From positions 416,001 to 480,000 of the forward strand of contig CAVURN010000005.1 of assembly GCA_963743915.1 (NCBI GenBank): a stretch of DNA of 64,000 nucleotides, given 5' to 3'. Under the pieces are notes generated by a model. The model did no database searches. It was not told the origin of the DNA and saw only the letters and a list, made by a program, of their open reading frames with translations. This stretch comes from an uncultured Actinomycetota bacterium. Its GTDB lineage: Bacteria; Actinomycetota; Actinomycetes; JAHEKZ01. Shown piece after piece: positions 8,259 through 30,454 of the stretch. The translations under genes were made by a program, and so were the position numbers. How positions within the stretch are numbered: the first letter of the stretch is position 1; the number at the start of each line of letters is the position of its first letter.

Positions 8259-8259
8259 T

Positions 8260-9819: not shown

Positions 9820-10200
9820 ATGTCCATCTATCAACGCAAGCCGCACTTCGCAAAGGCATACTCGTTCGCCATTGTCACTGGTCTGCTCTTTCTGGTGAGC
9901 TGGCTTGCCCAGTTCCTGACCCAGATGCAGGTCGCTCGGGACGAAGCCAGTCAGCATGGCCAACCGTTCCTCTGGTCCGACTACCTGCCTCAGTTCTTCG
10001 CGTCGACTTTCGAGAACTGGCAGTCGGAGTTCCTGCAACTGATCTGGCAGGCCGCCGGACTGGCCTTCTTCTACTTCTGGGGCTCGTCACAGTCGCGGGA
10101 GAGCGACGAACGCCTCGAGGCGAAGATCGACACGCTCCTCCGGGAGCGAGGCGTCGATCCTCGTCAGGTCAACCAGGATCCCGTGGAAGAGGTCCTGGTC
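9820..10200 (+). CDS. DUF6766-like small membrane protein; 3' end uncertain because no in-frame stop is present
   Basis: FENWQSEFLQL...GSSQSR signature with two hydrophobic segments; GAGG RBS; the frame runs on antisense to the next gene. Confidence 0.65.
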
Positions 10201-10209
10201 GCGCGACCT

Positions 10210-10986
10210 CTAGCCGGACGTGATCGACTCGCACTTGAAGACGATGATGTCGCCGCGGTCGCGGATGGCCCTGTCCCTGCCGCCTCCGCAGTAGATCCGG
10301 TCAGCACCCTCACCACCCACGGCGGTGTCGGTGCCGTATCCGCCGGTGATGTGGTCGCTTCCCGGACCGCCCTTGACTCGATCGCGCTGGTCGCCCGTTC
10401 GGATCCAGTCGTCACCGGCTCCGCCGCGCACCCGATCGTGCCGGAAGCACCGTTGAAGAAGTCCGGACCTGAGCCCAGCAGAGCGGTGTCGTCGCCACCA
10501 TCACCCAGCACGGTCAGCGAGAACTCAGCGGACAACGTCGACCCGTCGACGAAGTCGTCGCCGAGTCTGGGCCAGACCTCCACGAGCAGGCGGTTGTCCT
10601 CGCTGATGCCGTACGGAATCGGGCACTTCGCAGCAATGCCAGCGGACGCCCTTGATCTCCGTGCACTGCGCCGGCAGCGCGTCGATGCGGTCGGTTCCCC
10701 TGTCCGCGAAGCGGAGCTGGTCGCCGACCTGGGTGATCACCAGGTGGCTGTTCTGCTGACCGGCGCGGTAGCGGTACCCGCAGTCGGTCTTGAGGATCCT
10801 GGCCGCGTTCTTCATCGCCAGGTGGGGGTTGCGCCCGAGGAGCTCAGTGGTGAAGGAACACGTGTCCGGACCTGCAGCCGGTTGCTGGGTCGCGGCTACA
10901 GAACTACCGCCTGTCATGAGCGAAGTGATTGCGACGGCCGTGAGGGCGGCCAGGGTGCCTGCGAGTCGTGCGTCTCGCCTGAACAT
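10210..10986 (-). CDS. Secreted RTX/hemolysin-type calcium-binding-repeat protein, paralog 1 (frameshifted)
   Basis: Signal peptide MFRRDARLAG..; GDGGDD, GGAGDD, GGPGSD, GGEGAD nonapeptides; close paralog of 11247-12023; frame breaks near 10440 and 10590-10640. Confidence 0.75.
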
Positions 10987-11246
10987 CAATCTCCCGAGGT
11001 CGACGACAATGCTGGCCAACGTACCGAGAACGCCTGAGCCATCAAAACGGGACGCGGTACTCGTCGTGTTGCCCCTATTTGTGGGGATACGCGAGGTGTC
11101 ACCCGCCTGGGTGCACGCACAAATGTGCCTTCTGCCCCTTGATCTACTGCCGGGAGTGACAAACCTCACGGTGAGCGATTTCGAGAAGGCTGTTGTTCGG
11201 CGCGTCCTGGGTCCGCGTCCGTTCTGAGCGAAGCGCCTCGTACGCA

Positions 11247-12023
11247 CTAGCTGGACGTGACCGACTCGCACTTGAAGACGATGATGTCGCCGGCGTCGCG
11301 GGTGGCCCTGTCCCGACCGCCGCCGCAGTAGAGACGGTCGGCGCCTTCACCGCCGACGATGGTGTCGGTGCCGTAGCCACCAGTGATGTGATCGTTTCCA
11401 GGGCCGGCCTTGACGCGATCGTGCTGGTCCCCCGTACGGATCCAGTCGTCTCCGGCACCGCCCTGTACTCGGTCGTTGCCGAAGGCTCCGTTGAAGAAGT
11501 CCGGGCCAGCCCCGAGGAGGGCCGTGTCGTTCCCACCATCGCCCAGCACCGTCAGGGAGAACTCCTCGGACAGCGTCGACCCGTCGACGAAGTCGTCGCC
11601 CAGTCTGGGCCAGACCTCGACGAGCAGCCGGTTGTCCACGCTGATGCCGTACGAGATCGGGCACTCGGCGGCGATGCCGCGGACGCCCTTGATCTCGGTG
11701 CACTTCGCCGGAAGCTTGTCGATGCGGTCCGTCCCCCTGTCCGCGAAGCGGAGCTTGTCGCCCACCTGGCGGATGACCAGGTGGCTGTCCTGCTGACCGG
11801 CGCGGTAGCGGTATCCGCAGTCGGTCTTGATGATCCTGGCCGCGTTCTTCATCGACAGATAGGGGTTGCGGTCAATGAGCTCCGTGGTGAAGGAGCAGGT
11901 GTCCGGACCAGCATCCGGCTGTGGTGCGGCGACGGCGCTGCCGCCGGCCATGATGGCCGTGGTCGTGGCAATGGTGATGAGGGCGGCCAGCGCCCCAGCA
12001 AGTCGTGCGTCTCGCCCGAACAT
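11247..12023 (-). CDS. Secreted RTX/hemolysin-type calcium-binding-repeat protein, paralog 2 (intact)
   Basis: Sec-type signal peptide, six Cys, C-terminal GGxGxD repeats. Confidence 0.82.
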   Translation of the reverse strand: MFGRDARLAGALAALITIATTTAIMAGGSAVAAPQPDAGPDTCSFTTELIDRNPYLSMKNAARIIKTDCGYRYRAGQQDSHLVIRQVGDKLRFADRGTDRIDKLPAKCTEIKGVRGIAAECPISYGISVDNRLLVEVWPRLGDDFVDGSTLSEEFSLTVLGDGGNDTALLGAGPDFFNGAFGNDRVQGGAGDDWIRTGDQHDRVKAGPGNDHITGGYGTDTIVGGEGADRLYCGGGRDRATRDAGDIIVFKCESVTSS

Positions 12024-19065: not shown

Positions 19066-20475
19066 TCAGCTGTTGACGACCTCGCGCCACGCCTGTTGAG
19101 ACGCCGAGTCGAGGAGGCGGAACTCTCCTCCGGGGACGAGCGAGTCGAAGTACGTGACGAACTCCGCGCCCTGGTCGGACAGGTGACGGCCGACACGTCG
19201 AAGCCAGTCAGCGCGGTCGGCACCGCCAGCGTCCCCTGGACGGAGCTTCGACCCGAGCTCAGCGATGCCGAACCCGACCCCGAAGTTCCGGGACGCCGCG
19301 ATGGCGCGGGAGAACATCGTCACCGGATCCAGGTAGTAGTCGGACTTGTTGTAGCAGTCCCATCCGATGGTCTCGACGACGTCGCGTCCCGGGAAGAAGT
19401 CGTTGAGCGACCGACCCGAGTTGGGGTTGGCGGTCCAGCACATGAGGATGACGGTGTTGTGCAGCGAGGGGTTGGCCGCCTGGTTGGCCAGTCCGGCGAT
19501 CCGCCGGTACGCCTCGCGCCACTGCTGCGCGGACATCTCACCGCGCTTCACGTCGTCCTCGGGCTCGTGCCAGTACGTCCACCAGATGTCACGGCCCTGC
19601 GGTGTGGACCGGAACCAGTTCAGCAGCTGGGCGTCGTACCGACCGGACAGCACCTGAGCCGGCGGGGCCTTGAACGAGACGACCACCGGTCGGTTGACGG
19701 CACCAGCGCGACCCGGCCAGCTGTCAGGAAGTCCTGGGTAGAACACGCGGACCACATCGAGGTTCCCGTACCGCTGGTCCGCCGCGGCTACCGCCGAGGA
19801 CCAGCTCTGCCCACCTTGGTAGACGCTCGCGCCGAACTTGGTGTCCGAGTCGGTACGCCCACTGGTGCCCTCGCCCGAACCGTCGGGTCGGACGGCAGGG
19901 CTGTCGATCGGGTTCAGGAACAGGTGGTCGACGAAGACGGGAGCGCCGGCCGGCAGCTTGGCGAACTCGACCGCCATCTGCAGCCGGCTGCTGCTCGACT
20001 CTGCGCGGTAGCGGAAGGCCACGCGCTGCCACTCGGTCCCGCTGAGGGTGAAGTCCGCCGATTGCGTGCCGATCTCCCGACCGTCACGCAGCTCGCGGAG
20101 TCGCAGTGCGCCGTGCACGGCGGGGTTCGACGAGCGGACGAAGACGACGGCTCGGTAGAGCTGGCCCTGCTGAGCATCCGGAAGACCCTGCCGCGGGTCG
20201 AGGAGCGTCACGTCCGCGGCGTCTGCCGACTCGATGCGCAACGCGAAGCGGCTGCCGACCGCGCCCGGGCTCGAGCGACTGACCTCCAGCTGACTCGCCG
20301 ATCTGATCTCCCACCCTTCGGCTCCCATGCGGAAGCCGGAGTGATCGAGCAGGTTGTCGCTGCCGCGTCCTGCTGACGACAGACCGTCGTTCACGACGAC
20401 CGCAAGACCTGCGACGACGGCGAACGCTGCGGTCACAGCGGCGACACGACGAAACGAAGCATTCAGCTGAGGCAT
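19066..20475 (-). CDS. Secreted glycoside hydrolase (GH26-like) with an N-terminal CBM4/9-like domain
   Basis: Signal/TM segment; CBM-like 'TEWQRV...VFVDHL'; catalytic-like WHEPE, IGWDCYN, GIAELG. Confidence 0.72.
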   Translation of the reverse strand: MPQLNASFRRVAAVTAAFAVVAGLAVVVNDGLSSAGRGSDNLLDHSGFRMGAEGWEIRSASQLEVSRSSPGAVGSRFALRIESADAADVTLLDPRQGLPDAQQGQLYRAVVFVRSSNPAVHGALRLRELRDGREIGTQSADFTLSGTEWQRVAFRYRAESSSSRLQMAVEFAKLPAGAPVFVDHLFLNPIDSPAVRPDGSGEGTSGRTDSDTKFGASVYQGGQSWSSAVAAADQRYGNLDVVRVFYPGLPDSWPGRAGAVNRPVVVSFKAPPAQVLSGRYDAQLLNWFRSTPQGRDIWWTYWHEPEDDVKRGEMSAQQWREAYRRIAGLANQAANPSLHNTVILMCWTANPNSGRSLNDFFPGRDVVETIGWDCYNKSDYYLDPVTMFSRAIAASRNFGVGFGIAELGSKLRPGDAGGADRADWLRRVGRHLSDQGAEFVTYFDSLVPGGEFRLLDSASQQAWREVVNS

Positions 20476-20780
20476 GGAGACTCCACATCGTTGCGCGAGG
20501 AATGACAGACACAGCAAGGGAAATCTCGACTGTCTGCCCTGACGATGGCGTCTGGGCCGAGGGCTATGTGTCGTCAGGTCGCGGTGTGCGCCGACCTAGC
20601 CTCGCTCCGTGTTTCAGAACGCTTCGACCCTTGCCCACCTCACAGCGCAGGTCAATTTCCAGGCGTGTCGTGGGCGTGTCGCCCGCAAGATTTCTACAGA
20701 GAGTGGTGAGGCGTAGTCAGACAGTGGTGACGCGCGGCAGAAGTCGCGAGTGAGAGGTTCGTCCTACATGGGGCGATTCG

Positions 20781-23700
20781 TCAGCGTTGCTCTGCAGGCG
20801 ACTCGGCGTAGAACGCCCGACGCACCGGCTTGACCGGTCGCATGAGGAACTCCGGACGCCGCAGCCCCGACGCACTGGGACCGGGACGGGTCTTCGCGAG
20901 CCACTCGTGGAAGACCTCCGACGACTTCGCCGTGTCGACGACGACGTCTCCGTACTGGTCGTCGTCGTGTGCCTTCTCGACGCGCACCTTCTGGTGCCAG
21001 CAGTGCATGCCCGACCAGGGATCCGGGTGGACGCCGAACGCCAGGTTCTGGTGCACGCCCGGGTCGTCCCAGTAGATGCGCGAGGAGTCCGGGTCGTCGC
21101 TCGCGAAGGGCTTGACGCTGTCCTTGTAGCGAAGCCGCCAATCGCCCGTCCGGCATCTTGCCGACGTCGACCAGACCCATCACCCAGCGGCTTCCCGCGT
21201 TCTCGGTGTTGCGCCACCGTCCCATGTGGTGCGACAGCGCGATGACGCCGGGACGGATGGCCTCGGTCGCCCACACCCGCGCCACGAAGTGGCCGATCTC
21301 GGTGTTCACCCTGGCCAGGTCACCGGTCGCGAAGCCGAGCCGTCCGGCGTCCTCGGTGTTCATCCAGAGCGGGTGGGTGTTGGAGATCTCGTTGAGGTAC
21401 TTCGCGTTGCCCGAGCGGGTGTGGATCATCGTGGGCAGCCGGAAGGTCGGCATCAGGACCAGCTCGCCGCGGGAGCGGTCGAGCTCGCGGTGCCCGACGT
21501 GCGACTCGATGTAGCCCGGCGTCGCGTACTCCGGCCAGCCGAAGTCGACCATGGTCGGCGAGTAGAGCTCCAGTCGCGGGACGGCGTGAGCCAGCCGGCG
21601 ACCTGCGAGCCGTCCGCCAGCTGGACGCCCGACGGCACCGGCCTCGCCCACCAGGGGTGGGGTCGAGTCGAGCGTCGTGGGCTTGCGCAGCACGCCCTGC
21701 GGGTCGGCGCGTCGCACCGTCGAGCTCGGCGTCGGTGAGCGGGCGCTCGTCGAGCCGGTACATGTCCGTGCCCGAGCTCGAAGACGCCGTAGCTTGCGCA
21801 TGTACTCCAGCGGCGTCAGGCCCTGCTGCTGGGCCGCCTTCTCCGGCAGCCCGGGCACCTGGTTGTCGAAGACCCAGCCGTAGTAGTCGTCGACCGTCAC
21901 CTTCTCGCCCGGGTCGGTCCGGGGACTCGAAGTACTGGCGGATGCCGAGCGATCCGTCCGGGTCGATCCGCCACGAGAGCTCGAACCAGAACTCGTTCTC
22001 CTCCCAGACCTCGCCAGGGTTCGACTCACGCGAGTCGCTGACCGGCGTGCCCAGCCGCTCCATGGCGACCCGCCGCACGGGCTGGCGGAAGCCGATCCAC
22101 TTGCCGCCGTACTGTCTCGTACGACTGCGTGTCGTGCCGCTCGGGGCCGTGCCCCATGGGCAGGACGTAGTCGGCGAACATCGGCGGTCTCCGACCAGGT
22201 CGGCGTCAGGGCGACGTGCAGGCCGACCAGGCTCTCGTCGGTGAGGGCCTCGATCCAGGTGAAGCCGTCGGGGTTGGTCCAGATCGGGTTGTAGACCCGG
22301 GAGAAGTAGACCTCGAGCTTGCCGCGCCCCTCCTTCAGCAGGTGCGGCAGCAGGATCGACATCTCGTTGGTCGACAGCGGGTACTCCGGCGGCCAGAGCT
22401 TCTCGTTCCACTGGTCGTGGCCGCTCGGCATGTTCGGGCCGTGCGGGATGAACTTGTTCCATCCGTTGGGGCTGGTGCCCGCCCACGGTGCCGACGCTGC
22501 CGGTGAGCACGGTGAGGAAGAAGAGCGCACGCGCGACCATCCAGCCGCCAAGGTTGCCGGCCGTCGCGGCACGCCAGACGTGCGCCGCCAGGCGGCCCTC
22601 GGCGCCGGCCACCAGCTCGGCCAGCTCCTCGACCTGCTCGACCGGGATCTGCGCCTCCTGCGCGGCGTACTCGAAGGTGTACGGCGCGTACTCCTCGGTC
22701 AGCGCCCGCTGGAACGCCGCGAAGTCGCCGGGGTCGACGTCGGGGTGCAGCTCTCGCAGGTAGGTGTCCCAGTTGATCCACCGACGGACGTAGTCCCACG
22801 CCGACCTGGTCGGTGCGCAGCAGGTAGGACGCGATCGCCAGCAGGATCGCCGCCTCGCTGCCCGGCCAGGGGCTCATCCAGAGGTCGGCGTGCGAGGCGG
22901 TGTTCGACAGTCGCGGGTCCAGGACGACGAGCTTGGCGCCGCCCTTGACCTTGCCCTCCATGATCCGCTGGGCGTGCGGGTTGAAGTAGTGCCCCGTCTC
23001 GAGGTGGCTGGAGATGAGCAGGATCACCTCGCGCGTTCGCGTAGTCGGGCGACGGCCGGTCGTAGCCCCCCCACAGCGTGTAGCCGAGCCGCGCGCCCGC
23101 GGAGCAGATGTTGGTGTGGCTGTTGTGCCCGTCGACGCCCCAGGCCAGCAGCACCCGCTCGACGAAGCCGTCCTCACCGGGACGACCCACGTGGTAGATG
23201 ACCTCGTCGCGCCGGTCCTCCTCGATGGCCCTGCGGATCCGGGCGGCGATGTCGTCGAGCGCCTCGTCCCAGGTGACCGGCTCGAAGCTGCCGCTCCCGC
23301 GCTCCCCGACCCGCCGCAGCGGGTGAGGATCCGCTCGGGGTCGTTGACCTGGTTGACGGTCGCCGGGCCCTTCGCGCAGTTGCGACCGCGTGACCCGGGG
23401 TGCGCCGGGTTGCCCTCGAGCTTCTTGATCGACAGGTCGTCGTGGTCCACGTAGGCCAGCAGCCCGCAGGCCGACTCGCAGTTGAAGCAGGTGGTCGGGA
23501 CGAGCATGTAGTGCTTCTCGACCTTGCGAGGATGCGCCTTCGCGTCGTGCAGCGACGACGTCGTCCCACGACTCGACCGGCGGGAAGTTCGAGACGGTCT
23601 CACGGATCCGGAGGCCGAACGCCTCGGGAGCGGTGTCCTCGACGCGTGAGGCGGCTGGACCTGTCGGCGCTGGACCTGTCGGGGGGTGCGGGGTCATCAC
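20781..23700 (-). CDS. Molybdopterin (DMSO-reductase family) oxidoreductase catalytic subunit, Psr/Phs/Ttr/Sre/Soe-like clade; many frameshifts
   Basis: FS0 motif CFNCESACG...NCAKG; Mo-ligand region HNSHTNICS; HLETGHYFNPH; C-terminal IHTRSGN, HPLWMN, SHHMGR; no twin-arginine signal. Confidence 0.85.
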
Positions 23701-23706
23701 GGCTCC

Positions 23707-25232
23707 TCAGGACAGCGGGACGTCTTGCGCGGCTTTGACGAACACGGACTCGTACGCGAGGAGGGGCGACCTGCGCGAGCAGACCGACGGCGACGCCGAG
23801 CCAGGCCGACGCACCGAGTGCGACCGCGAGGCCACCCGCCAGGGCCACCAGCGACAGCAGGATGCCCACGAACCAGAACGTCTTCGCGTACCGACCGTGC
23901 GTGATGATGTGCGCCGCGACCTCGGCGTTGCGGGTGGAGTGCTTGCCGCCGAACTCGACGAGCAGCATCAGCAGGTGCGGCGGCGGTCCCGACGACGAAG
24001 GTCGCGGCAGTGGCCACCACGGTGGTCTCGGAGGCGTCGACGAACGGGGCGACGACGAGCATCGCGCCGGCGCCGACCATGAGCGCCTGGGCCTGCAGGT
24101 GCCAGAACAGCACCGGTGACTGCCAGAGGTCGCGACCCTCGGCCTGGCCGAAGAGGAACGCGGTGTACCCGGCCGTCATCACCGCTGCGGGGACGCCGAA
24201 CCAGGCCATGGCCTCGACGAGGCCGTCGGCACCGAACACGTACCCGAGGAACCAGACGCTGATCACGGCGCCGAAGGCCGAGCAGCACGATCGAACCGAG
24301 GGCGAGCCACGACGTCCAGTTGGGTTTGGTGAACAGGTAGTAGAAGCGGTCGGGTCGCTTGAGGTCCCAGATCGAGCAGGACGCCGGTGACCGACGGCGA
24401 ACAGCGCCCCCAGCACCGGCGCCACGACGCCGTTCAGCGCGTTCGGCCCTTCGACGAGCAGCAGCGAGGATCGCGGCCGTGAGCACCGCACCGGACGCGA
24501 TCGCCTTCGTCCAGAGGTAGGTCCACACCCGCCAGCCCCACGGACGCGGGTGCGCGGTGTTGAGCGTGGTGCGGGCGTTGGTCTTGGGGTCGACCGGCGA
24601 AGTCGTCCTGGTTCTCGAGGCGCTGCGGGTCGGGCTGGGCCCAGATGTAGGTGTCGTCGACGGGGGCGGCCAGCGGGTTCAGGACCGCCTCGCTCGCGCC
24701 CACGTAGAAGACGTTGGGCCCGGTCTTCTGCTCCGGGCGTCCGGGTCTGCACCGGTGTGATGCTGAGGAACTTGCGGATGCCGCTGTCGGGGTCGTCGAG
24801 GTCTCCCATCCAGATCGACTCGGTGGGGCACACCACCACGCAGGCCGGCTCGAGGCCCTGGTCGATGCGGTGGGCGCAGAAGTTGCACTTGGCGGCGGTG
24901 TGGGTGTCCTCGTCGATGTAGAGCGCGTCGTAGGGACACGCCTGCATGCAGCTCTTGCAGCCGATGCACCGCTCGCTGTCGAAGTCGACGATGCCGTCCT
25001 CGCGCTTGAACAGCGCCTGCGTCGGGCAGATCGCCACGCACGGGGCGTCGGTGCAGTGGTTGCACCGCATGACGCCGAACTCGCGGGTGGTCGCCGGGTA
25101 CTCGCCCTTGTCGACGTACTTCACCCAGGTGCGGAACTGCCCGAGCGGGATCTCGTGCTCGGTCTTGCAGGCCACCGTGCACGCGTGGCACCCGATGCAG
25201 GTCCGCTGGTCGATCGCGAAGCCGTACTGCAC
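23707..25232 (-). CDS. Fused 4x[4Fe-4S] ferredoxin subunit and NrfD/PsrC-like membrane anchor (frameshifted)
   Basis: CIGCHACTVAC, CNHCTDAPCVAICP, CIGCKSCMQACP, CNFCAHR...PACVVVCP; then WGW..WTYLWTK, DLKRPDRFYY, GYTAFLFGQAEGRDLW; ends VKAAQDVPLS*. Confidence 0.85.
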
Positions 25233-25238
25233 CTCAGG

Positions 25239-25469
25239 TCACTTCTTCCGGATGGTGAAGGTGAAGACCGGTCCCTCGGTCTCGCTCTCCATGAGCTCGT
25301 AGCCCATGTCCCTGGCCCACGACGGGATGTCGCTCTTCGAGCCCGGGTCGGTGGCCTCGACCCGGATCACGCGGCCCGCCTCGACCGCGTCGATGCCCTT
25401 GCGTGCCAGCAGCACCGGCATCGGACACGACAGGCCCTTGGCGTCCACCACCGTGACGTCTTCCACCAT
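25239..25469 (-). CDS. tusA: TusA-family sulfur carrier protein
   Basis: DAKGLSCPMP motif, ATDPGS..DI..W; 76 aa. Confidence 0.9.
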   Translation of the reverse strand: MVEDVTVVDAKGLSCPMPVLLARKGIDAVEAGRVIRVEATDPGSKSDIPSWARDMGYELMESETEGPVFTFTIRKK

Positions 25470-25524
25470 CTCGCTCCTCCTGACGGTCCTCGACCGGTTG
25501 TCGTCGGCGCCCAGGGCGCCCTCG

Positions 25525-26016
25525 CTAGATGAACAGCTGGATGTCCGACCGTGACATCTCGCTCAGCGCGGTCGCGGCACCCGCGGGCTCGCCGAGCCCT
25601 GGCCGCAGCTGGTCGGGCTTGATCCCCAGAAGGTCCATCGTCATCTGGCAGGGCCAGATCTTCACGCCCATGTCGAGACACAGCTGGAAGAGCTCCTCAG
25701 GGGGCATCACCTTGTGCTGACCGGCGAGCCTGCGCATCATCCACTTGCCCGCGCCACCCATGTTCAGCTTCGAGAGCTTGGCGCGCTGGAACCCGGGAGG
25801 GTTCATCCCCGCCAGCATCTTGGTCATGGCGTTGTCCCCGGTGATGCGGACATCGTCACGCACCAGAGGGAAGAGGCCCCAGAACGTGTGGAAGACCGTC
25901 ACGTCCATGTTGTAGGCCGCCGCGGTGGAGCTGAGGATCATGGTCGGCCAGAGCTTGTCGAGGTCGCCGCTGAAGGCGATGATCGTCATCTTGTCAGGGG
26001 TCTCGGTATCGGCCAC
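25525..26016 (-). CDS. DsrE/DsrF/DrsH-like (DsrE2/YrkE-type) sulfurtransferase
   Basis: FSGDLDK, FHTFWGL, LSKLNMGGAG, conserved Cys in PCQMTMDLLG. Confidence 0.88.
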   Translation of the reverse strand: MADTETPDKMTIIAFSGDLDKLWPTMILSSTAAAYNMDVTVFHTFWGLFPLVRDDVRITGDNAMTKMLAGMNPPGFQRAKLSKLNMGGAGKWMMRRLAGQHKVMPPEELFQLCLDMGVKIWPCQMTMDLLGIKPDQLRPGLGEPAGAATALSEMSRSDIQLFI

Positions 26017-26069
26017 GCCGCCTCCTCGAAAGAGGGCGCCACCGGGACGCCAGCTCCATTCACCTTAGT

Positions 26070-26173
26070 TGCGCACATGCGCATGAATCAAGAACTTCGG
26101 GTCGATTCGTCTCACGGTCCGCCCTTCGACTCTTCCCCGGGGACAATCGATGTATTAGCGTCTGCGCATGTAA
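26070..26173. promoter_or_regulatory. Putative operator sites in the dsrE2/pdo divergent promoter
   Basis: TGCGCACATGCGCA (26070-26083) and the reverse complement TTACATGCGCAGACGCTAA (26155-26173) share ATGCGCA(GAC) with 28960-28984. Confidence 0.5.
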
Positions 26174-26223
26174 CTGGACCCCGCCGGGCACGGCGGGGGC
26201 TGATGGCCGCCTAGGAGGTTGCC

Positions 26224-27354
26224 GTGGCTCGGACCGTGACACCCACTGAGCTCTTCGCAGAGATCGAGCACGGCCACGTGCCGTACATCCTCGACGTCCG
26301 CAACCCCGACGAGTACGCCAGCTGGCAGGTCGAGGGAGCCCGCCCTGTCGAGACGCGCAACCTTCCGGTCTGGCGCGCACTCGACGACGTCGACGAGCTG
26401 TCCAGGACGCTGCCCGACAACAGCGTGCTGGTCTGTGCGCACGGCAACGGCAGTGAGCTGATCGTGGACATGCTGGCCGAAAGGGGCAAGCCGACCCGCA
26501 ACCTCGAGGGTGGGACTGCGGCGTGGGCCCAGCTGCTCGTGCCTCGTCCCCTGCCGGGTCTGCCGGAAGGGCTCGTCGGCTGGCAGATCCAGCGTCCGGC
26601 CAAGGCATGCCTGTCCTACGTCATCGGCGTCCCGGGACACGGCTGCGTGGTGGTGGACCCCGCGCGCTTCCCGGACTCCTACGTCGAGCTGGCCACCGAG
26701 CACGGCATGACGATCAAGCACGTCGTGGACACCCACGTCCACGCCGACCACGTGACAGGAGGGCCGGCACTCGCGGACGCGGTCGGCGCCACCTACTCGG
26801 TGCCGATGGAGGACACCGGAGGTGCCACTCCGTTCGAGAACCATCCGCTCGAGGACGGTCAGATGCTCGACCTCGGCCCCGTGTCGCTGCAGGTGCTCGG
26901 GATCAAGCTGCCGGGGCACACCCCTGGGACGACGTGCCTGCTCATTCCTGACCACGCGCTTCTCTCCGGTGACACCGTCTTCGTGCGAGGCGTCGGTCGT
27001 CCCGATCTCACGGGCAAGGCCGAGGAACTGGCGCGAGAGCTGTTCCACACCGTGCACGAGAAGCTGCGTCCACTCGACCCGGCGACGCAGGTGTTCCCTG
27101 CCCACTGGTCCAGTGCCGAGGAGATGGGCGCCGACGGTCTCGTCCGGACGACCATGGGAGAGGTCTTCGCCTCGACGCTGATGAACGAGGAGGATCTCGT
27201 GCGCTTCGTCACCGAGATCGTGGGGTCACTCCCCTCAGCCCCCTCGTTCTACGACACGATCCGCGAGGTCAACGCGGGGAAGGTCGTCACGGCCGAGGAG
27301 ATCGAGGTCCTGGAGATCGGCAAGAACCAGTGCGCCGCCTCCACCACTCTGTGA
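26224..27354 (+). CDS. Rhodanese-MBL-fold persulfide dioxygenase fusion (YrkH-like)
   Basis: N-terminal rhodanese (LDVR, VCAHGNGS, LEGG); THVHADH, GHTPG, GD..F..GVGRPD, PAH; C-terminal GKNQCA. Confidence 0.87.
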   Translation: MARTVTPTELFAEIEHGHVPYILDVRNPDEYASWQVEGARPVETRNLPVWRALDDVDELSRTLPDNSVLVCAHGNGSELIVDMLAERGKPTRNLEGGTAAWAQLLVPRPLPGLPEGLVGWQIQRPAKACLSYVIGVPGHGCVVVDPARFPDSYVELATEHGMTIKHVVDTHVHADHVTGGPALADAVGATYSVPMEDTGGATPFENHPLEDGQMLDLGPVSLQVLGIKLPGHTPGTTCLLIPDHALLSGDTVFVRGVGRPDLTGKAEELARELFHTVHEKLRPLDPATQVFPAHWSSAEEMGADGLVRTTMGEVFASTLMNEEDLVRFVTEIVGSLPSAPSFYDTIREVNAGKVVTAEEIEVLEIGKNQCAASTTL

Positions 27355-27367
27355 GGACGTGCGACGG

Positions 27368-28930
27368 TCACGGCTCGTCGTCACCGAGGTGCGCGGCCAT
27401 CTCGGCCCGGCACTCGTCCGCGAGGTCATCGGCGAGCACGCGTGCGACGATGCGTCGTAGCTGGGGCGGCACGGAGCAGACCTCGGCGGTGATCCCTGCC
27501 TCCCGCACCTCGTCGAGCAGCGTGCTCAACGCCATCGCCCCGGTGACGTCGAGCCGACCGAGGCCCTCGAGCTCGACCCGCAGCCGTTCGGTGCCAGGGT
27601 GCTCGGCCAACAGGTTGTTGACGGCGTCCTCCAGGCCCGGAGCCGACGCGAAGTAGAGCACGCCCGACGGACGCACGTGCAGGACACCGTCCTCGTACTC
27701 CGCGGGCACCTGCAGGTGGAGCTCACGCCAGAGGTGGACGAGGGTCGCCATCCCGACACCGAGCAGCACGGCCAGGTCGAGGCGCGGGGCCAGCGCCAAC
27801 GAGGCGACGTACGTGACGGCAGCGGTCGCGAACTGGACGCGCCCCAGGCGCCAGAAGCCGAGCACCGGGCGGATGTCGACCAGCCGCAGCACCGATGCGA
27901 TCACGATTCCGGCGAGCACCGAGCGCGGCAGGTTCTCCAGCACCGCGGCGAAGGGGAGGAATGCCAGCACCAGCAGGCCGGCCACCAGCCCGCTCCACCG
28001 GGTGCGGGCACCGGCGAGCCGGTTCAGCGTGCTGCGCGAGAACGAACCGCCCACGGGGTATCCACCGGCCATCCCGGCGGCAAGGTTCGCGACGCCCTGC
28101 GAGACCAGCTCGCGGTCCGAGCTCCAGTGCTGCCGGTCCTCGGCGGCCAGCCGCCGCGAGATGGCGGCCGGTTCGGCGAAACCGACCAGGGCGATCACCA
28201 GGGCGGGCACGACCAGCTGCAGCGAGTCACCCCAGGGCAGGTCGAGCGGGTTCGGCACACCCGAGACGGAGACCGCACCCACCGTGGGGCCTCCCAGGTC
28301 CGTAGTTGCGGCGAGCACCACCGCTCCCCCGACCAGCAGCGGCACGATCGGGAACGTCGCCGGCAGACGTCGCACCAGCAGCATCGCCGCGACTGTGACG
28401 ACCGCCAGCACGACAGCCGACGGCGTCCACGCTCCCGGGTCGGCGAGGGCGTCGAACGCCGCCTGTCCGGGACGGTTGCTGTCGGGCGGCACACCGACGG
28501 CTGCGGGCACCTGGGAGAACACGATGAGCAGGGCGGCGGCCGCGGTGAACGCGGCGAGGACCGGTTGCGACATCAGGTACGCCAGGACGCCGCCACCCGA
28601 GATCCCGAGGACGAGCCGGATGACACCGACGAACAACGCCAGCAGTGCCGCGAGGGCCACGTAGCCCGGCGAGCCCGCCGCCGCGAGTCCGGTGAGGCCA
28701 CCCAGGACGAGCAGGGAGGTGATGGCGACCGGGCCGGTGGCCAAGTAGGGCGACGAGGCGAAGAAGGCCGCTCCCACCGGAGCGGCAACGGCTGCGAGGA
28801 GTCCGGTGGTCGGAGGCAGACCGGCGAGGGAGGCATAGGCGACCGCCTGCGGGATGAGCACGACGCCGACACTGAGCCCGGCGACCAGGTCACCGACGAC
28901 GGGCCGCGTAGGGACCTCGCGTCGTGCCAC
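27368..28930 (-). CDS. SulP/SLC26 anion transporter with STAS domain
   Basis: DLVAGLSVG..LIPQAVAYA..AG, TGP, GGSFSRS, STAS LYFASA/DVTG. Confidence 0.9.
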   Translation of the reverse strand: MARREVPTRPVVGDLVAGLSVGVVLIPQAVAYASLAGLPPTTGLLAAVAAPVGAAFFASSPYLATGPVAITSLLVLGGLTGLAAAGSPGYVALAALLALFVGVIRLVLGISGGGVLAYLMSQPVLAAFTAAAALLIVFSQVPAAVGVPPDSNRPGQAAFDALADPGAWTPSAVVLAVVTVAAMLLVRRLPATFPIVPLLVGGAVVLAATTDLGGPTVGAVSVSGVPNPLDLPWGDSLQLVVPALVIALVGFAEPAAISRRLAAEDRQHWSSDRELVSQGVANLAAGMAGGYPVGGSFSRSTLNRLAGARTRWSGLVAGLLVLAFLPFAAVLENLPRSVLAGIVIASVLRLVDIRPVLGFWRLGRVQFATAAVTYVASLALAPRLDLAVLLGVGMATLVHLWRELHLQVPAEYEDGVLHVRPSGVLYFASAPGLEDAVNNLLAEHPGTERLRVELEGLGRLDVTGAMALSTLLDEVREAGITAEVCSVPPQLRRIVARVLADDLADECRAEMAAHLGDDEP

Positions 28931-28959
28931 TATCCACCTCCCCTGCTCAGCCTCTACGG

Positions 28960-28988
28960 TACGCACATATGCGCAGACACTGAAGTAT
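28960..28988. promoter_or_regulatory. Putative ArsR operator in the sulP/arsR divergent promoter
   Basis: TACGCACATATGCGCAGACACTGAAGTAT, an imperfect palindrome sharing its core with the 26070-26173 sites. Confidence 0.5.
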
Positions 28989-29048
28989 GCCCAAGGAGCA
29001 GGCGACGCCCCAGGGTTACACTGACCGCACCGCACAACAGGAGGTGCC

Positions 29049-29408
29049 GTGGACCGCGAGACTTCGCTGGAGATCCACGAGCTGCACGCGCGGATCTGCA
29101 AGGCCATCGCCGACCCCAAGCGACTGCTCATCATCAACGAGCTGCGCAACGGCCCTCTCACGGTCGGTGAGCTCTCCGACGCGCTGGAGATCAGCCAGTC
29201 GAACTGCAGCCAGCACCTTGCGATTCTTCGCGAGCGCGGAGTCGTCACGGCGGAGCGCAACGGCACCAGCGTCAGCTACGAGCTGCGAGGCGACAAGGTC
29301 GTCCAGGCGGTGGACCTGCTGCGCGAGTTCATGGCGGAGGAGCTCGGCACCCGTAGCCGGCTGGGTCGTGCAGCGACGCGGGTGCCGAAGGCGCGCAGCC
29401 GACGCTGA
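29049..29408 (+). CDS. ArsR/SmtB-family transcriptional regulator with two Cys
   Basis: CKAIADPKRLLII, TVGEL, SQSNCSQHLAILRERGVV wHTH; GGAGG RBS. Confidence 0.9.
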   Translation: MDRETSLEIHELHARICKAIADPKRLLIINELRNGPLTVGELSDALEISQSNCSQHLAILRERGVVTAERNGTSVSYELRGDKVVQAVDLLREFMAEELGTRSRLGRAATRVPKARSRR

Positions 29409-29410
29409 CC

Positions 29411-30454
29411 TCAGGTTGTCCCGTCGAACGTGAACCGCTCGAAGGGAGTCGTGCACGCGTGACCGCGTGCCAGCCACATGGACCGAGTCTCCGACTCGCA
29501 CACCATCGCGAAGAGGATCGTCGCGCCCTCGTCACCTTCGTCCGGGTCCGGATGGACACAGATGTGCTGCCCCTCCGCGTCGTGGTCCGCCAGGAGCGCG
29601 GTCATGCCCTCCACGGTGACGCTCGTCGTCTCCGACAGCTTCTGCGCCCGCGCCAACCTCGACTGACTTCCTGCTGACGGGGCGCAGGCCTTCGCTGCGA
29701 CCGTCGGGGCGAGGGAGTGGTTCGTGTGCACCGTGAGGTCGAGCCGGGCCGCTGTGGTCGCCGTGGTCTCGATCACGCAGGCATCCCCACCGGGAAAGGC
29801 ACACAGATAGGAGTACCCTCCGGCGCGGTGCTCCGGGGTCGCCCGCTCGAGCGCATCGGCTGGATCGCGTGCGTCGAGCAAGTGGCGCGCGACCAGCGCA
29901 CGGGGCACTCCGACCTTCTCGTCCAAGGCCGAGAGCGACATCGTGCCGAAGGCTGCCCCGTGCTCGTTGAGCCCGACCAACGGCAACGTTCCCGCCACCA
30001 TCGGCGCCAGCACGGCCGGAGCGTCGTCGGACACGTCCAGGACGAGGCCCACGGCGCCTTCGTCCCCGGCGTACCACTGCTCGTTGTGGCCCAGCAGTGT
30101 CCTGCCGTCAGACCGCAGCACGACGTCGGTGCATCGCTCAAGGGGTGTCGCGGTCACATTGCCGAGCTCGACGACCCCGTAGACCTCCTCGAAAGCGTTG
30201 GCGAAGAAGACGTCGAGAAAGGGCTGGTCCGCTCCCTCCGCCATCCCGTGCAGCTGGTCGACCAGGTGCGGGAAGGCGGAGGTCGCTGCTTCGACGTAGG
30301 GGGCGAGCAGGACCTCGAGCGACGCGCGATCGATACCGTGATTCGCCAGGTAGCGGCGGTTGAAGTCCACCGACCGGGCGATGCCGTTGCCGAACGCCTC
30401 GCCCATCTGGGCGCCTCGCTGGTGCGGCGTCCCCGCCACGCGGATCACACTCAC
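29411..30454 (-). CDS. C45-family autoproteolytic acyltransferase/hydrolase (Ntn hydrolase)
   Basis: GTPHQRG, nucleophile Cys in ERCTD, GHNE, GLNEHG, HTNH, ICVH motifs; start overlaps the Rieske stop. Confidence 0.8.
   Translation of the reverse strand: MSVIRVAGTPHQRGAQMGEAFGNGIARSVDFNRRYLANHGIDRASLEVLLAPYVEAATSAFPHLVDQLHGMAEGADQPFLDVFFANAFEEVYGVVELGNVTATPLERCTDVVLRSDGRTLLGHNEQWYAGDEGAVGLVLDVSDDAPAVLAPMVAGTLPLVGLNEHGAAFGTMSLSALDEKVGVPRALVARHLLDARDPADALERATPEHRAGGYSYLCAFPGGDACVIETTATTAARLDLTVHTNHSLAPTVAAKACAPSAGSQSRLARAQKLSETTSVTVEGMTALLADHDAEGQHICVHPDPDEGDEGATILFAMVCESETRSMWLARGHACTTPFERFTFDGTT

What the first reader, a model, noticed from the sequence alone, without database searches (positions are those of the whole stretch)
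20781..29408. Actinobacterial sulfur cluster linking DsrE2/TusA sulfur relay and persulfide dioxygenase to a TAT-less membrane molybdoenzyme and SulP
Seen: a minus-strand operon dsrE2-tusA-[4xFeS+NrfD fusion]-Mo subunit, a divergent rhodanese-MBL gene, a convergent SulP and an ArsR. The Mo subunit has an FS0 cluster motif, a Cys-type ligand region (HNSHTNICS) and no twin-arginine leader. Established: DsrE/TusA/rhodanese traffic sulfane sulfur in sulfur oxidisers and in Bacillus yrk-type operons; persulfide dioxygenases produce sulfite; SoeABC is a cytoplasm-facing, quinone-linked sulfite dehydrogenase, while PsrA/PhsA/TtrA are TAT-exported. Inference: a cytoplasmic route persulfide -> sulfite -> sulfate with electrons passed to menaquinone and export through SulP, or the reverse, a TusA-fed sulfur/polysulfide reductase. 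I do not know of such a module being characterised in Actinobacteria.
Basis: partly seen in the sequence, partly recalled or inferred. Interest (0 to 1): 0.75.

Follow-up and report, generated by a model that had tools for sequence, protein, structure and literature searches.

The report
Actinobacterial persulfide-to-sulfate gene cluster
A sediment actinobacterium carries a conserved gene set that probably turns reactive sulfur into sulfate through an inward-facing membrane molybdenum enzyme of a widespread, already noted but never tested family, and the many frame breaks in it look like assembly errors.

Summary

The two molybdoenzyme genes carry 22 single-base frameshifts (20 insertions, 2 deletions). 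The 511-aa ORF that looks intact is not. Short-read contigs from 4 sediment runs lack these extra letters, so the breaks are most likely consensus errors (about 0.85).

The enzyme reaches no curated family cut-off. It is 54-57% identical to the two-gene, signal-less psrBC-psrA unit (PSRLC3) of green sulfur bacteria. The literature has proposed that unit as a cytoplasmic sulfite oxidase since 2008, and the same layout is published for Marine Group A.

Across phyla the unit sits beside different sulfite-producing systems (persulfide dioxygenase, rDsr, Hdr-like genes) and different anion exporters (SulP, TauE, DASS). This supports sulfite:menaquinone oxidation (about 0.6).

I could not test its relation to Allochromatium SoeA, and no member has been assayed. 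This scan has reported the same family before on other genomes. Rhodococcus jostii RHA1 plasmid pRHL3 carries most of the cluster and offers a test system.

Verdict: a new member of a known kind, of moderate interest.

The parts
20781..23697 (-). Catalytic Mo-bisPGD subunit (about 960 aa when read through), Tat-less, with the FS0 Cys motif and the Cys193-type ligand region. Broken in this assembly by 14 single-base frameshifts at about 23553, 23323, 23028, 22802, 22480, 22182, 22115, 21913, 21792, 21767, 21709, 21630, 21577 and 21141.
   Evidence: Pfam pieces in three frames. Frameshift-aware alignment to the intact G010 and G004 orthologues gives 860/958 and 858/961 identical residues and no in-frame stop. 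Invariant Cys residues. No leader sequence.
23707..25232 (-). Four-[4Fe-4S] ferredoxin domain (16 Cys, residues 1-~165) fused to an eight-helix NrfD/PsrC-type quinone anchor. Broken by 8 single-base insertions at about 24737, 24595, 24465, 24395, 24373, 24282, 23978 and 23767. The true C-terminus ...YESVFVKAAQDVPLS ends at 23707, not 23697.
   Evidence: The intact orthologue has PF13247 + PF03916. Loop charges put the N-terminal side in the cytoplasm.
25239..25469 (-). TusA-family sulfur carrier, 76 aa, with Cys15 in the CPxP motif. It ends 6 nt before the FeS-NrfD gene starts.
   Evidence: PF01206, 77.6 bits. Cys15 is kept in 32 of 33 homologues. TusA lies directly upstream of FeS-NrfD in 15 of 80 related loci.
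25525..26016 (-). Soluble DsrE2-like (DrsE_2 family) sulfur carrier, 163 aa, with invariant Cys123.
   Evidence: PF13686, 149.8 bits. NCBIfam DsrE2 equivalog scores 74 bits against a cut-off of 210. No hydrophobic segment found. Cys123 is kept in 34 of 34.
26017..26223 (.). Divergent promoter region holding the palindrome TGCGCA-CA-TGCGCA at 26070-26083, a candidate operator.
   Evidence: The pattern TGCGCANNTGYGCR gives 3 matches at 2 places in the window, against 0.06 expected. A site with at most 1 mismatch lies in the same intergenic region in 8 of 10 loci.
26224..27354 (+). N-terminal rhodanese (Cys71) fused to an MBL-fold domain of persulfide-dioxygenase type (HxHxDH 171-176, His232, Asp250, His294), with invariant C-terminal Cys370.
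   Evidence: Pfam. The closest solved chains are 3tp9, 3r2u, ETHE1 4chl and BpPRF 5ve3, ahead of the glyoxalase II chains. Residue conservation in 21-22 of 22.
27368..28957 (-). SulP-family anion transporter with a STAS domain, convergent with the rhodanese-MBL gene. The start is inferred; the listed ORF runs on to 29266, antisense through arsR.
   Evidence: PF00916, 229.6 bits, + STAS. TIGR00815 scores 234.9 bits against a cut-off of 380. No internal frameshift against two orthologues.
28958..29048 (.). SulP/ArsR divergent promoter with a related motif, TGCGCATATGTGCG (28962-28975, minus strand).
29049..29408 (+). ArsR/SmtB-family regulator, 119 aa. His13, Cys17 and His56 are invariant; Cys53 is not conserved.
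   Evidence: PF01022. NF033788 scores 84 bits, over its cut-off of 55; BigR scores 55 bits against a cut-off of 155. Conservation in 20 sequences.

Best explanation
The region encodes a cytoplasmic route for disposing of sulfane sulfur. Inferred steps: TusA, the soluble DsrE2-like protein and the rhodanese domain carry persulfide sulfur. The MBL domain, of persulfide-dioxygenase type, oxidises it with O2 to sulfite. The two-gene molybdoenzyme then oxidises sulfite to sulfate on the cytoplasmic face and passes the electrons through FS0 and four [4Fe-4S] clusters to menaquinone in the NrfD domain. SulP exports the anion. The ArsR-family protein controls the two divergent promoters through a TGCGCA-N2-TGCGCA operator. 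Shown here: the gene content, its conservation, the absence of export signals, the inward topology, and orthology to the PSRLC3 / psrBC-psrA unit of green sulfur bacteria. Not shown: the substrate of the molybdoenzyme, the direction of electron flow, the transported anion and the regulator's ligand. The 22 frameshifts in this copy are most likely consensus errors of the assembly, so the locus is probably functional in the organism.
For: Synteny. ArsR, rhodanese-MBL, DsrE2, TusA, FeS-NrfD and Mo are all present in 8 of 8 published related loci with enough flank (L015-L020, L023, L024). Five of them have open 960-962-aa Mo genes. FeS-NrfD lies directly upstream of the Mo gene in 76 of 80 loci from many phyla; the 4 exceptions have about 1 kb or less of upstream DNA.

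Topology. No Tat motif in 16 of 16 catalytic subunits, and the FeS domain starts at residue 1-3. The loops of the NrfD domain on its N-terminal side hold 16 K+R, against 0 on the other side.

Context in other lineages.
- MBL-rhodanese / FeS-NrfD / Mo / SulP in a Binatia MAG (L067).
- ArsR-TusA-DsrE2-Rhd-MBL-FeS-NrfD-Mo followed by two Na/sulfate-symporter-family genes in a Neomarinimicrobiota MAG (L085).
- TusA plus HdrC/HdrB/HdrA-like genes upstream in Gordonia rhizosphera (L040) (all).
- In FMO-positive (green sulfur) genomes, the unit is followed by TauE/SafE, DsrE2, rhodanese, TusA, DsrN-like, DsrC and DsrA.
The shared chemical link between these neighbours is cytoplasmic sulfite.

Other support. 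The MBL domain is closest to persulfide dioxygenases. In the literature, PSRLC3 is inferred to be a sulfite oxidase (PMC9324843 legend; PMC6338057 passage; PMC3906813 passages). SoeABC is an N-side sulfite:quinone oxidoreductase (PMC8076601 passages).

Frameshifts.
- Contigs of 4 runs leave out one letter at 9 of my 22 sites (21908, 22115, 23029, 24280, 24373, 24397, 24465, 24594, 24738). A further 22 rows were not shown.
- The number of gaps per contig equals my predicted count in 6 of 8 contigs checked. The other two have 3 more.
- Contigs of run X1 over 25003-29233 have 0 gaps.
- Read through, the Mo protein is 90% identical to its orthologue with no stop.
- 20 of 22 events are +1 insertions.
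- Another long-contig assembly of the genus, G006, has 17 such events at other positions in the same locus.
- Candidate frame switches are patchy across the genome.
Against: No member of this fused family has been assayed. The sulfite assignment rests on gene neighbourhood and on an untested proposal in the literature. The catalytic subunit reaches no curated cut-off (best: DmsA/YnfE 163 bits against 778, PhsA 160 against 694). Its nearest solved chains are a polysulfide/thiosulfate reductase, NapA, ArrA and FdhF at nearly equal E-values, so sequence alone does not point to sulfite. I could not compare it with Allochromatium SoeA.

TusA and DsrE2 are both present in only 20 of 80 loci, and 42 of 80 show none of TusA, DsrE2, the orthologous MBL or SulP within the fetched flanks. 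The ArsR protein lacks the second conserved Cys of BigR/SqrR-type persulfide sensors.

On the frameshifts: the short-read contigs differ from the window by 2-5% in the broken stretch (31/608, 29/927, 11/486), against 0.2-1.4% in the flanks. They may therefore come from a sister strain, and one or more runs may be the window's own source. A recent real decay in this one strain is not excluded.
Confidence: 0.6

Rival explanations
1. The molybdoenzyme is a cytoplasm-facing sulfane-sulfur, polysulfide or thiosulfate reductase. Menaquinol reduces TusA- or DsrE2-bound persulfide, or thiosulfate, to sulfide. This is the reader's 'reverse' reading and the name given to the Marine Group A homologues.
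For: The nearest solved chain is the Thermus polysulfide/thiosulfate reductase 2vpw (E 3.8e-29). NCBIfam PhsA is the second-best model (160 bits). tusA lies directly upstream in 15 of 80 loci. PMC3906813 calls the Marine Group A homologues polysulfide reductase while saying that the substrate cannot be told from sequence.
Against: All scores lie far below family cut-offs, and NapA, ArrA and FdhF score about the same. The partners are oxidative or produce sulfite: an O2-dependent persulfide-dioxygenase-type domain, and rDsr and Hdr-like genes. The linked transporters are of sulfate/sulfite types (SulP, TauE, Na/sulfate symporter family). Known Psr/Phs enzymes are Tat-exported, and this one is not.
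Confidence: 0.1
2. The enzyme acts on carrier-bound sulfur rather than free sulfite. It oxidises TusA persulfide or TusA thiosulfonate directly and passes the electrons to menaquinone, giving an O2-independent bypass of the dioxygenase.
For: tusA abuts the FeS-NrfD gene in the window (6-nt gap) and in 15 of 80 loci. TusA, DsrE2 and rhodanese also lie next to the unit in 3 of 4 green-sulfur-bacterial loci. The catalytic subunit is about 200 residues longer than the Psr chain it matches (960 against 765 aa), which leaves room for a docking surface.
Against: 60 of 80 loci lack the TusA + DsrE2 pair nearby. In green sulfur bacteria these carriers are already explained as feeders of rDsr (PMC11094781 passages). 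No such activity is known in the DMSO-reductase superfamily. No binding test was run.
Confidence: 0.12
3. The locus is dead in this organism. The 22 frameshifts are real and the two molybdoenzyme genes are young pseudogenes.
For: The breaks are confined to 21141-24737, while TusA, DsrE2, Rhd-MBL, SulP and ArsR are open. The same stretch is also 2-5% different from the nearest short-read contigs, against about 1% in the flanks. That is what relaxed selection would also give. The unit was found in only 5 of 13 other genomes of the genus (this is a floor), so it is dispensable.
Against: There is no in-frame stop, and the read-through protein is 90% identical to its orthologue, as conserved as the neighbours. 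All 22 events are single bases and 20 are insertions, unlike the deletion-biased decay usual in bacteria (established knowledge). Short-read contigs of 4 runs lack them. G006 has 17 similar events at other positions. About 632 candidate frame switches without a stop occur genome-wide, in patches, in a 5-contig assembly that is 90% complete. Contig depth over this gene is up to 5 times that of the flanks, so reads of other organisms pile up there.
Confidence: 0.1
4. TusA, DsrE2 and rhodanese serve the maturation of the enzyme (sulfur for molybdopterin or Fe-S clusters) rather than substrate supply. The link to sulfur metabolism is therefore weaker than it looks.
For: Maturation genes follow the Mo gene elsewhere: Mrp/NBP35 in L040, L044, L047 and R. 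jostii RHA1, and TorD/NarJ-family chaperones in L054, L056, L061 and L119. A role of TusA in molybdenum cofactor synthesis in E. coli is recalled from the literature; I did not check it here.
Against: This does not explain the persulfide-dioxygenase-type domain, the SulP/TauE/Na-sulfate transporters, or the rDsr and Hdr-like neighbours. The two roles are not exclusive.
Confidence: 0.08

Closest known systems
PSRLC3 / psrBC-psrA cytoplasmic polysulfide-reductase-like complex of green sulfur bacteria. The same layout is reported in Marine Group A, Marine Group II, Caldilinea, Chloroflexus and Haladaptatus (PMC3906813).
   Same: Two genes in the order BC-A, the FeS subunit fused to the NrfD anchor, and no Tat signal. 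In 4 of 5 FMO-positive genomes the catalytic subunit is 54-57% identical over the full length and the FeS domain 55-59% identical. TusA, DsrE2 and rhodanese lie nearby in 3 of 4 of those loci.
   Different: In green sulfur bacteria the unit sits next to the rDsr genes and a TauE exporter. Here it sits with a rhodanese-persulfide-dioxygenase fusion, SulP and ArsR, in an actinobacterium that probably respires with menaquinone. Neither version has been assayed.
SoeABC sulfite:quinone oxidoreductase (Allochromatium vinosum, Aquifex aeolicus)
   Same: A Mo-bisPGD enzyme with an FeS subunit and an NrfD-type anchor, held to face the cytoplasm and to oxidise sulfite made inside the cell (PMC8076601 passages). 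One review passage says SoeABC genes are universally present in purple and green sulfur bacteria (PMC8232776).
   Different: SoeABC has three separate subunits, and the gene order soeA-B-C is recalled.
PsrABC / PhsABC periplasmic polysulfide and thiosulfate reductases (Thermus 2vpw, Wolinella, Salmonella)
   Same: Same superfamily and subunit logic. 2vpw is the best-scoring solved chain (3.8e-29), and PhsA is among the best NCBIfam models.
   Different: Those enzymes are Tat-exported and face the periplasm, are about 760 aa long, and work as reductases. This one has no signal, faces inward, is 960 aa long, and scores 160 bits against the PhsA cut-off of 694.
Persulfide-detoxification operons with a persulfide dioxygenase-rhodanese fusion and a thiol-based repressor (cst operon of Staphylococcus aureus, BigR-Blh of Xylella/Agrobacterium; recalled)
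   Same: A regulator, sulfurtransferase domains (TusA, DsrE, rhodanese), a persulfide-dioxygenase-type MBL domain and an anion exporter. The nearest solved chains of the MBL domain are of this kind (3tp9, 3r2u, 5ve3).
   Different: Here the rhodanese is N-terminal. The Blh equivalog scores 26 bits against a cut-off of 625 and BigR 55 against 155. The regulator has one conserved Cys, not two. A respiratory molybdoenzyme is added that can take the sulfite on to sulfate.

Membership tests
PSRLC3 / psrBC-psrA cytoplasmic complex | Two-gene unit with the FeS subunit fused to the NrfD anchor, upstream of the catalytic subunit | tested here: met
   Window read through. Intact orthologues have PF13247+PF03916 in one ORF of 506-523 aa. 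The same holds in green-sulfur-bacterial loci, at 517-547 aa.
PSRLC3 / psrBC-psrA cytoplasmic complex | Catalytic subunit without a Tat signal | tested here: met
   16 of 16 N-termini lack a twin-arginine motif followed by a hydrophobic stretch. No dedicated Tat predictor was run.
PSRLC3 / psrBC-psrA cytoplasmic complex | Orthology to the green-sulfur-bacterial proteins | tested here: met
   In 4 of 5 genomes that carry the FMO protein (PF02327), the best match is a 958-1010-aa ORF, 54-57% identical over residues 12-955, with the fused gene upstream. That these genes are the ones named PSRLC3 rests on the published description ('2 genes encoding PSRLC3', PMC5473276), not on locus tags. No reciprocal search or tree was made.
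PSRLC3 / psrBC-psrA cytoplasmic complex | Sulfite-oxidising activity | not testable with these tools
   In the papers seen this is a proposal only.
SoeABC | Sequence clustering of the catalytic subunit with SoeA of A. vinosum or A. aeolicus | not tested
   No SoeA sequence could be fetched by name. Sources give no SoeA names among the hits, and NCBIfam returned no SoeA model.
SoeABC | Three separate subunits A, B, C | tested here: not met
   B and C are one polypeptide and precede A.
SoeABC | Catalytic dimer on the cytoplasmic (N) side | tested here: met
   No signals. Positive-inside count of 16 against 0. This is a prediction, not an experiment.
PsrA/PhsA/TtrA/ArrA/DmsA/formate dehydrogenase equivalogs | Score over the curated NCBIfam cut-off | tested here: not met
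   Best scores: DmsA/YnfE 162.6 (cut-off 777.7), PhsA 160.2 (694), Fdh-alpha 125.8 (666), ArrA 96.8 (1600), TtrA 81.4 (1750).
Persulfide dioxygenase (ETHE1/CstB type) | MBL fold with the HxHxDH, His and Asp metal ligands, and persulfide dioxygenases as nearest relatives | tested here: met
   Ligand columns are kept in 21-22 of 22. The best solved chains are 3tp9, 3r2u, ETHE1 4chl, 4ysb and BpPRF, ahead of glyoxalase II. Activity is not testable. The Blh equivalog cut-off is not met.
BigR/SqrR-type persulfide-sensing ArsR repressors | Two conserved Cys that form the sensing pair, and a score over the BigR cut-off | tested here: not met
   Only Cys17 is invariant (20 of 20); Cys53 is kept in 10 of 20; there is no C-terminal Cys. 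BigR scores 55.3 bits against a cut-off of 155. It does belong to the general ArsR/SmtB subfamily NF033788 (84 bits against 55).
DsrE2 (NCBIfam equivalog, membrane-bound DsrE2A type) | Score over the cut-off and two N-terminal transmembrane helices | tested here: not met
   74.4 bits against a cut-off of 210. No hydrophobic segment. It is a member of Pfam DrsE_2 (149.8 bits against 25) with the invariant active-site Cys.

The most novel reading that the evidence does not exclude
The tight tusA-to-enzyme linkage means that the molybdoenzyme takes its substrate from a protein carrier. It would be a TusA-persulfide (or TusA-thiosulfonate):menaquinone oxidoreductase that oxidises sulfane sulfur without O2, with the dioxygenase as the aerobic parallel route. 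That would be a reaction type not known in the DMSO-reductase superfamily and would give many soil and sediment heterotrophs an anaerobic, energy-conserving way to oxidise sulfane sulfur.
Probability: 0.1. Interest if true: 0.8.

Novelty: new member of a known kind. Interest (0 to 1): 0.4.

Why it matters
If the assignment holds, very many Actinomycetota carry a respiratory sulfite dehydrogenase that standard annotation calls only 'molybdopterin-dependent oxidoreductase' or 'formate dehydrogenase'. So do Gemmatimonadota, Acidobacteriota, Chloroflexota and haloarchaea. More than 8000 proteins match, and 122 of 301 genomes of one sampled class carry an orthologue. Metagenomic sulfur budgets that count only soeA, sorA or aprA would then miss a large share of heterotrophic sulfite oxidation. 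The family has been an untested prediction since it was noted in green sulfur bacteria. Most of the cluster is present on plasmid pRHL3 of the genetically tractable Rhodococcus jostii RHA1 (no SulP in the stretch shown), which makes the question directly testable. For this window the practical lesson is different: the broken genes are an assembly problem, not biology.

Tried and rejected
1. Getting a SoeA reference for a tree failed. These gave no SoeA label: NCBIfam, source names of 120+120 homologues, cluster look-ups of 10 representatives and the protein atlas.
2. P0125 (42% identical, 958 aa) was tried as a possible SoeA. Its relatives are the same unnamed family from Dormibacteria, Acidobacteriota, Chloroflexi and Streptosporangiaceae.
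3. A search of the 'class of G042' was meant to sample Gammaproteobacteria for classical soeABC. The record title says Gammaproteobacteria, but its locus is collinear with a Gemmatimonadota locus, and 122 of 301 genomes had 56-64% orthologues. It said nothing about SoeA.
4. The control genomes of the genome search give no loci, so they could not serve as references.
5. Paper look-ups for Gregersen et al. 2011 by DOI and by a recalled PMC id were not held. Frigaard & Bryant 2008 and Dahl et al. 2013 were seen only as citations.
6. One literature search was badly posed and returned nothing relevant.
7. The Sulfurovum mangrovi plasmid hit (38%) has a separate nrfD, a TorD gene and a longer FeS gene. 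I did not follow it up.
8. I considered and rejected programmed frameshifting or editing as an explanation for the 22 breaks. The sites share no motif, and short-read DNA contigs lack the extra bases.
9. No complex prediction, structure prediction or fold search was run.
10. Locus L022 (G033) is from an unpublished genome. Its rows are left out of every count.

Full report
WHAT IS THERE.
The window is part of contig C5 of a 2.9-Mb, 70% G+C, 5-contig genome rated 90% complete.
- An ArsR/SmtB regulator (29049-29408, +).
- A SulP/STAS transporter (27368 to about 28957, -).
- A rhodanese-MBL fusion (26224-27354, +).
- On the minus strand: a DrsE_2-family protein (25525-26016), TusA (25239-25469), a four-cluster ferredoxin (16 Cys) that continues into an NrfD-type anchor (25232-23707), and a molybdopterin subunit (23697-20781).
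The FS0 motif and the HNSHTNICS stretch are present. C65, C68, C72, C102 and C193 are invariant in 13 of 13 relatives.

THE FRAMESHIFTS.
A three-frame translation and a frameshift-aware alignment of my own show many breaks. I aligned against the intact orthologues of G010, G004 and G002.
- The Mo gene has 14 frame changes (12 extra bases, 2 missing).
- The FeS-NrfD gene has 8 (all extra bases).
- All lie between 24737 and 21141. A second reference gives the same result.
- The 511-aa ORF 23697-25232 is a chance open frame. Only its first 166 residues are real, and the true C-terminus ends at 23707.
- Read through, the proteins are 860/958 and 418/506 identical to their orthologues, with no in-frame stop. 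Uncorrected blast gave 57-64%.
- TusA, DsrE2, Rhd-MBL, SulP and ArsR are open. SulP and three genes further on have no internal break, and one other gene has a +1 at 37881.

ARE THE FRAMESHIFTS REAL?
I laid Logan contigs of 4 sediment-metagenome runs on 20500-29600. The runs have 4 study codes, may belong to one campaign, and one may be the window's own source.
- The contigs leave out one letter at 21908, 22115, 23029, 24280, 24373, 24397, 24465, 24594 and 24738. That is 9 of my 22 sites, each within 5 nt. Another 22 rows of that table were not shown.
- In 6 of 8 contigs checked, the number of gaps equals my predicted number of frameshifts: 4 in 21980-22910, 3 in 22349-23064, 2 in 23289-23682, 1 in 23147-23528, 2 in 23654-24165 and 6 in 24138-24857.
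- Two contigs have 3 more gaps than predicted: 9 against 6 in 21395-22009, and 10 against 7 in 20986-22006.
- Contigs of run X1 over 25003-29233 have no gaps.
- The same contigs differ from the window by 2-5% in the broken stretch but 0.2-1.4% in the flanks. Summed contig depth there is up to 5 times that of the flanks. Several related organisms therefore share this conserved gene in the samples.
- G006, a 3-contig assembly of the same genus, has 17 single-base frame changes in the same locus at other positions, with 884/959 identity. Five more fragmented assemblies have open genes.
- A codon-position G+C hidden-Markov scan of my own finds about 632 frame switches without a nearby stop across the genome. 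They are strongly clustered: 5-kb bins hold up to 12, against a mean of 1.08. This locus is one of the four densest patches.
- All events are single bases and 20 of 22 are insertions. That is not the deletion-biased pattern of natural decay (established knowledge).
I conclude, at about 0.85, that these are consensus errors, probably caused by reads of related strains. A young pseudogene in this one strain is not excluded.

CONSERVATION.
- Close orthologues of the fused gene (E of 4e-93 or lower) were found in 12 of 40 relatives searched, and in 5 of 13 other genomes of the genus. That search used a stricter first look, so these counts are a floor.
- In 8 of 8 published loci with enough flank, ArsR, Rhd-MBL, DsrE2, TusA, FeS-NrfD and Mo are all present. 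SulP lies between ArsR and Rhd-MBL in 6 of them. L022, from an unpublished genome, is left out.
The best 120 are 71-95% identical and 918-968 aa long.
- The few names given by sources are only 'molybdopterin-dependent oxidoreductase', 'formate dehydrogenase' or 'anaerobic selenocysteine-containing dehydrogenase'. They come from Nanopelagicales, Nocardioidaceae, Rhodococcus, Kribbella, Saccharopolyspora, Amycolatopsis, Frankiales, Streptosporangiales and Acidimicrobiales.
- In one genome per species, 595 of 600 candidate stretches encode a relative. The best 80 include Gemmatimonadota, Acidobacteriota, Chloroflexota, Binatia, Bacteroidota, Planctomycetota and Neomarinimicrobiota at 56-66% identity.
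- Plasmid records add Rhodococcus jostii RHA1 pRHL3 (77%), the Thermomicrobium roseum megaplasmid (60%) and five haloarchaeal plasmids (48-52%).
- Counts over the 80 loci: the FeS domain lies directly upstream in 76, and the other 4 have about 1 kb or less of upstream DNA. TusA and DsrE2 are both present in 20, with TusA abutting the fused gene in 15. An orthologous MBL (40% identity or more) is present in 12, SulP in 25, and none of these four in 42.

FAMILY PLACEMENT.
- The intact orthologue reaches no NCBIfam cut-off. The best scores are DmsA/YnfE 163 bits (cut-off 778) and PhsA 160 (694). Formate dehydrogenase, ArrA and TtrA models score lower.
- Among solved chains, the Thermus polysulfide/thiosulfate reductase 2vpw (3.8e-29), NapA, ArrA and FdhF score almost alike and cover mainly the N-terminal half.
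- It is thus a separate lineage of the DMSO-reductase superfamily.
I sampled 401 genomes from the phylum of a Saprospiraceae MAG, and 98 carry the FMO protein PF02327.
- In 4 of 5 such genomes searched, the best match is a 958-1010-aa ORF that is 54-57% identical over the whole length. It is preceded by a 517-547-aa FeS-NrfD fusion that is 55-59% identical in the FeS domain.
- This is the layout published as '2 genes encoding PSRLC3' (PMC5473276 passage) and as psrBC-psrA without a Tat signal in green sulfur bacteria, Marine Group A, Marine Group II, Caldilinea, Chloroflexus and Haladaptatus (PMC3906813 passages).
- I could not fetch a SoeA sequence, so the relation to SoeA proper is open. Earlier notes of this scan disagree on it.

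TOPOLOGY.
None of 16 catalytic subunits has a twin-arginine motif or a hydrophobic N-terminal stretch, and the ferredoxin domain begins at residue 1-3. In the NrfD domain of the G002 orthologue, a hydropathy script found five to six hydrophobic segments. I read two weaker ones by eye, which gives the eight helices expected. The loops on the side of the domain's N-terminus, plus the C-terminal tail, hold 5+4+1+5+1 = 16 Lys+Arg. The four loops on the other side hold none. By the positive-inside rule, the ferredoxin domain sits in the cytoplasm, and with it the Mo subunit. This is the orientation hypothesised for SoeABC (PMC8076601 passages).

ACCESSORY GENES.
- TusA keeps its Cys in 32 of 33 homologues, and the DsrE2-like protein keeps Cys123 in 34 of 34.
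- The DsrE2-like protein has no membrane segment and misses the DsrE2 equivalog cut-off, so it is a soluble DrsE_2 protein.
- The rhodanese Cys71, the HxHxDH/His/Asp ligands and a C-terminal Cys370 are kept in 21-22 of 22.
- The MBL domain is closest to 3tp9, 3r2u, human ETHE1 persulfide dioxygenase and BpPRF. Glyoxalase II chains score lower.
- The ArsR protein has one invariant Cys (Cys17) and two invariant His, but not a conserved Cys pair. It misses the BigR cut-off, so its signal is unknown.

CANDIDATE OPERATOR.
Both divergent promoters carry a TGCGCA-N2-TGYGCR motif: 3 matches at 2 places in 64 kb, against 0.06 expected, and 8 places in the whole genome. A site with at most one mismatch to TGCGCA-N2-TGCGCA lies in the DsrE2/Rhd-MBL intergenic region of 8 of 10 loci, while the whole window has a single such position. 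It is a plausible operator, by inference for ArsR.

FUNCTION.
The argument for function is comparative. The two-gene enzyme stays constant while its neighbours change.
- A persulfide-dioxygenase fusion plus SulP, in this genus, in a Binatia MAG and in an Acidimicrobiia MAG.
- The same carriers plus two Na/sulfate-symporter-family genes, in a Neomarinimicrobiota MAG.
- TusA with HdrC/B/A-like genes, in Gordonia rhizosphera.
- A CsoR-family ('metal-sensitive') regulator, in T. roseum.
- In green sulfur bacteria: TauE/SafE, DsrE2, rhodanese and TusA, followed directly by DsrN-like, DsrC and DsrA.

Persulfide dioxygenase, reverse Dsr and sulfur-oxidising Hdr all release sulfite in the cytoplasm (established knowledge; PMC11094781 and PMC8232776 passages). 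SulP, TauE and the symporter family move sulfate- or sulfite-type anions.

The simplest common denominator is a cytoplasmic sulfite:quinone oxidoreductase. That is the role proposed for PSRLC3 and shown for SoeABC. I give this 0.6.

The rivals are a quinol-dependent sulfane or thiosulfate reductase (0.1), an enzyme acting on carrier-bound sulfur (0.12), a dead locus (0.1), and carriers that serve maturation (0.08; not exclusive with the others). Against my reading: more than half of the loci show no sulfur gene within the fetched flanks, sequence scores do not single out sulfite, and no member of the family has been assayed.

NOVELTY.
The enzyme type and its proposed role are in print. This scan had already reported the same family on at least ten other genomes. 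I did not find the actinobacterial module with TusA, DsrE2, rhodanese-dioxygenase, SulP and ArsR described. That statement rests on searches of the held library only; subscription papers and supplements were not seen. It is a new member of a known kind. Its value lies in its breadth, in its poor annotation, and in the presence of most of the cluster on pRHL3 of R. jostii RHA1 (ArsR, two DUF202 genes, Rhd-MBL, DsrE-like, TusA, FeS-NrfD, Mo, Mrp; no SulP in the stretch shown), where the prediction can be tested.

Noticed in passing
whole genome G000; densest 5-kb bins C1:275000, C1:650000-660000, C5:435000 (this locus), C5:360000: A codon-position G+C scan of my own finds about 632 frame switches with no stop nearby. 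They are strongly clustered in patches. Gene calls and completeness estimates for this assembly are probably affected throughout.
   Followed up: partly
window 37881 (gene 38331-37500, minus strand): Another single extra base breaks a gene outside the cluster when aligned to the G004 orthologue.
   Followed up: no
L018 (G006) 6895-11488: A second long-contig assembly of the same genus has 17 single-base frame changes in Mo, FeS-NrfD, TusA and DsrE2, at positions different from those in the window.
   Followed up: yes
window 26070-26083 and 28962-28975: A palindromic TGCGCA-N2-TGCGCA-type motif sits in both divergent promoters and is conserved in the DsrE2/Rhd-MBL intergenic region of 8 of 10 loci. 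It is a candidate ArsR operator.
   Followed up: partly
L105 (R. jostii RHA1 pRHL3), L106 (T. roseum megaplasmid), one search hits H3-H7: The two-gene enzyme, and in RHA1 most of the cluster (no SulP in the stretch shown), lies on plasmids or megaplasmids in Rhodococcus, Thermomicrobium and five haloarchaea. Within the window's genus it was found in only 5 of 13 other genomes, and the DNA beyond the Mo gene is not syntenic. The module may move horizontally.
   Followed up: no
L105 4558-5349; L044 4819-5501: In RHA1 and one MAG, two DUF202 membrane-protein genes take the place between arsR and the rhodanese-MBL gene that SulP holds in the window.
   Followed up: no
window 26224-27354, residue Cys370: The rhodanese-MBL fusion has an invariant Cys six residues from its C-terminus (22 of 22). 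It is not part of the rhodanese or metal sites and could be a third sulfur-handling site.
   Followed up: no
L054 / G042: The record is titled Gammaproteobacteria, but its locus is gene-for-gene collinear with a Gemmatimonadota MAG (L056). 122 of 301 genomes of its class carry a 56-64% orthologue. The title may be a misclassification.
   Followed up: no
window 19066-20517 (minus strand): The 483-aa ORF just downstream of the Mo gene has coding-type G+C periodicity but no Pfam family, and only a weak below-cut-off match to a phage head spike fibre domain. It is not conserved in the same-genus loci.
   Followed up: no
L040, L044, L047, L105 downstream of the Mo gene; L054, L056, L061, L119: The gene after the Mo subunit is an Mrp/NBP35 Fe-S carrier in several Actinomycetes. 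In Gemmatimonadota-like, Anaerolineae and one green-sulfur-bacterial locus it is a TorD/NarJ-family chaperone. The window has neither.
   Followed up: no
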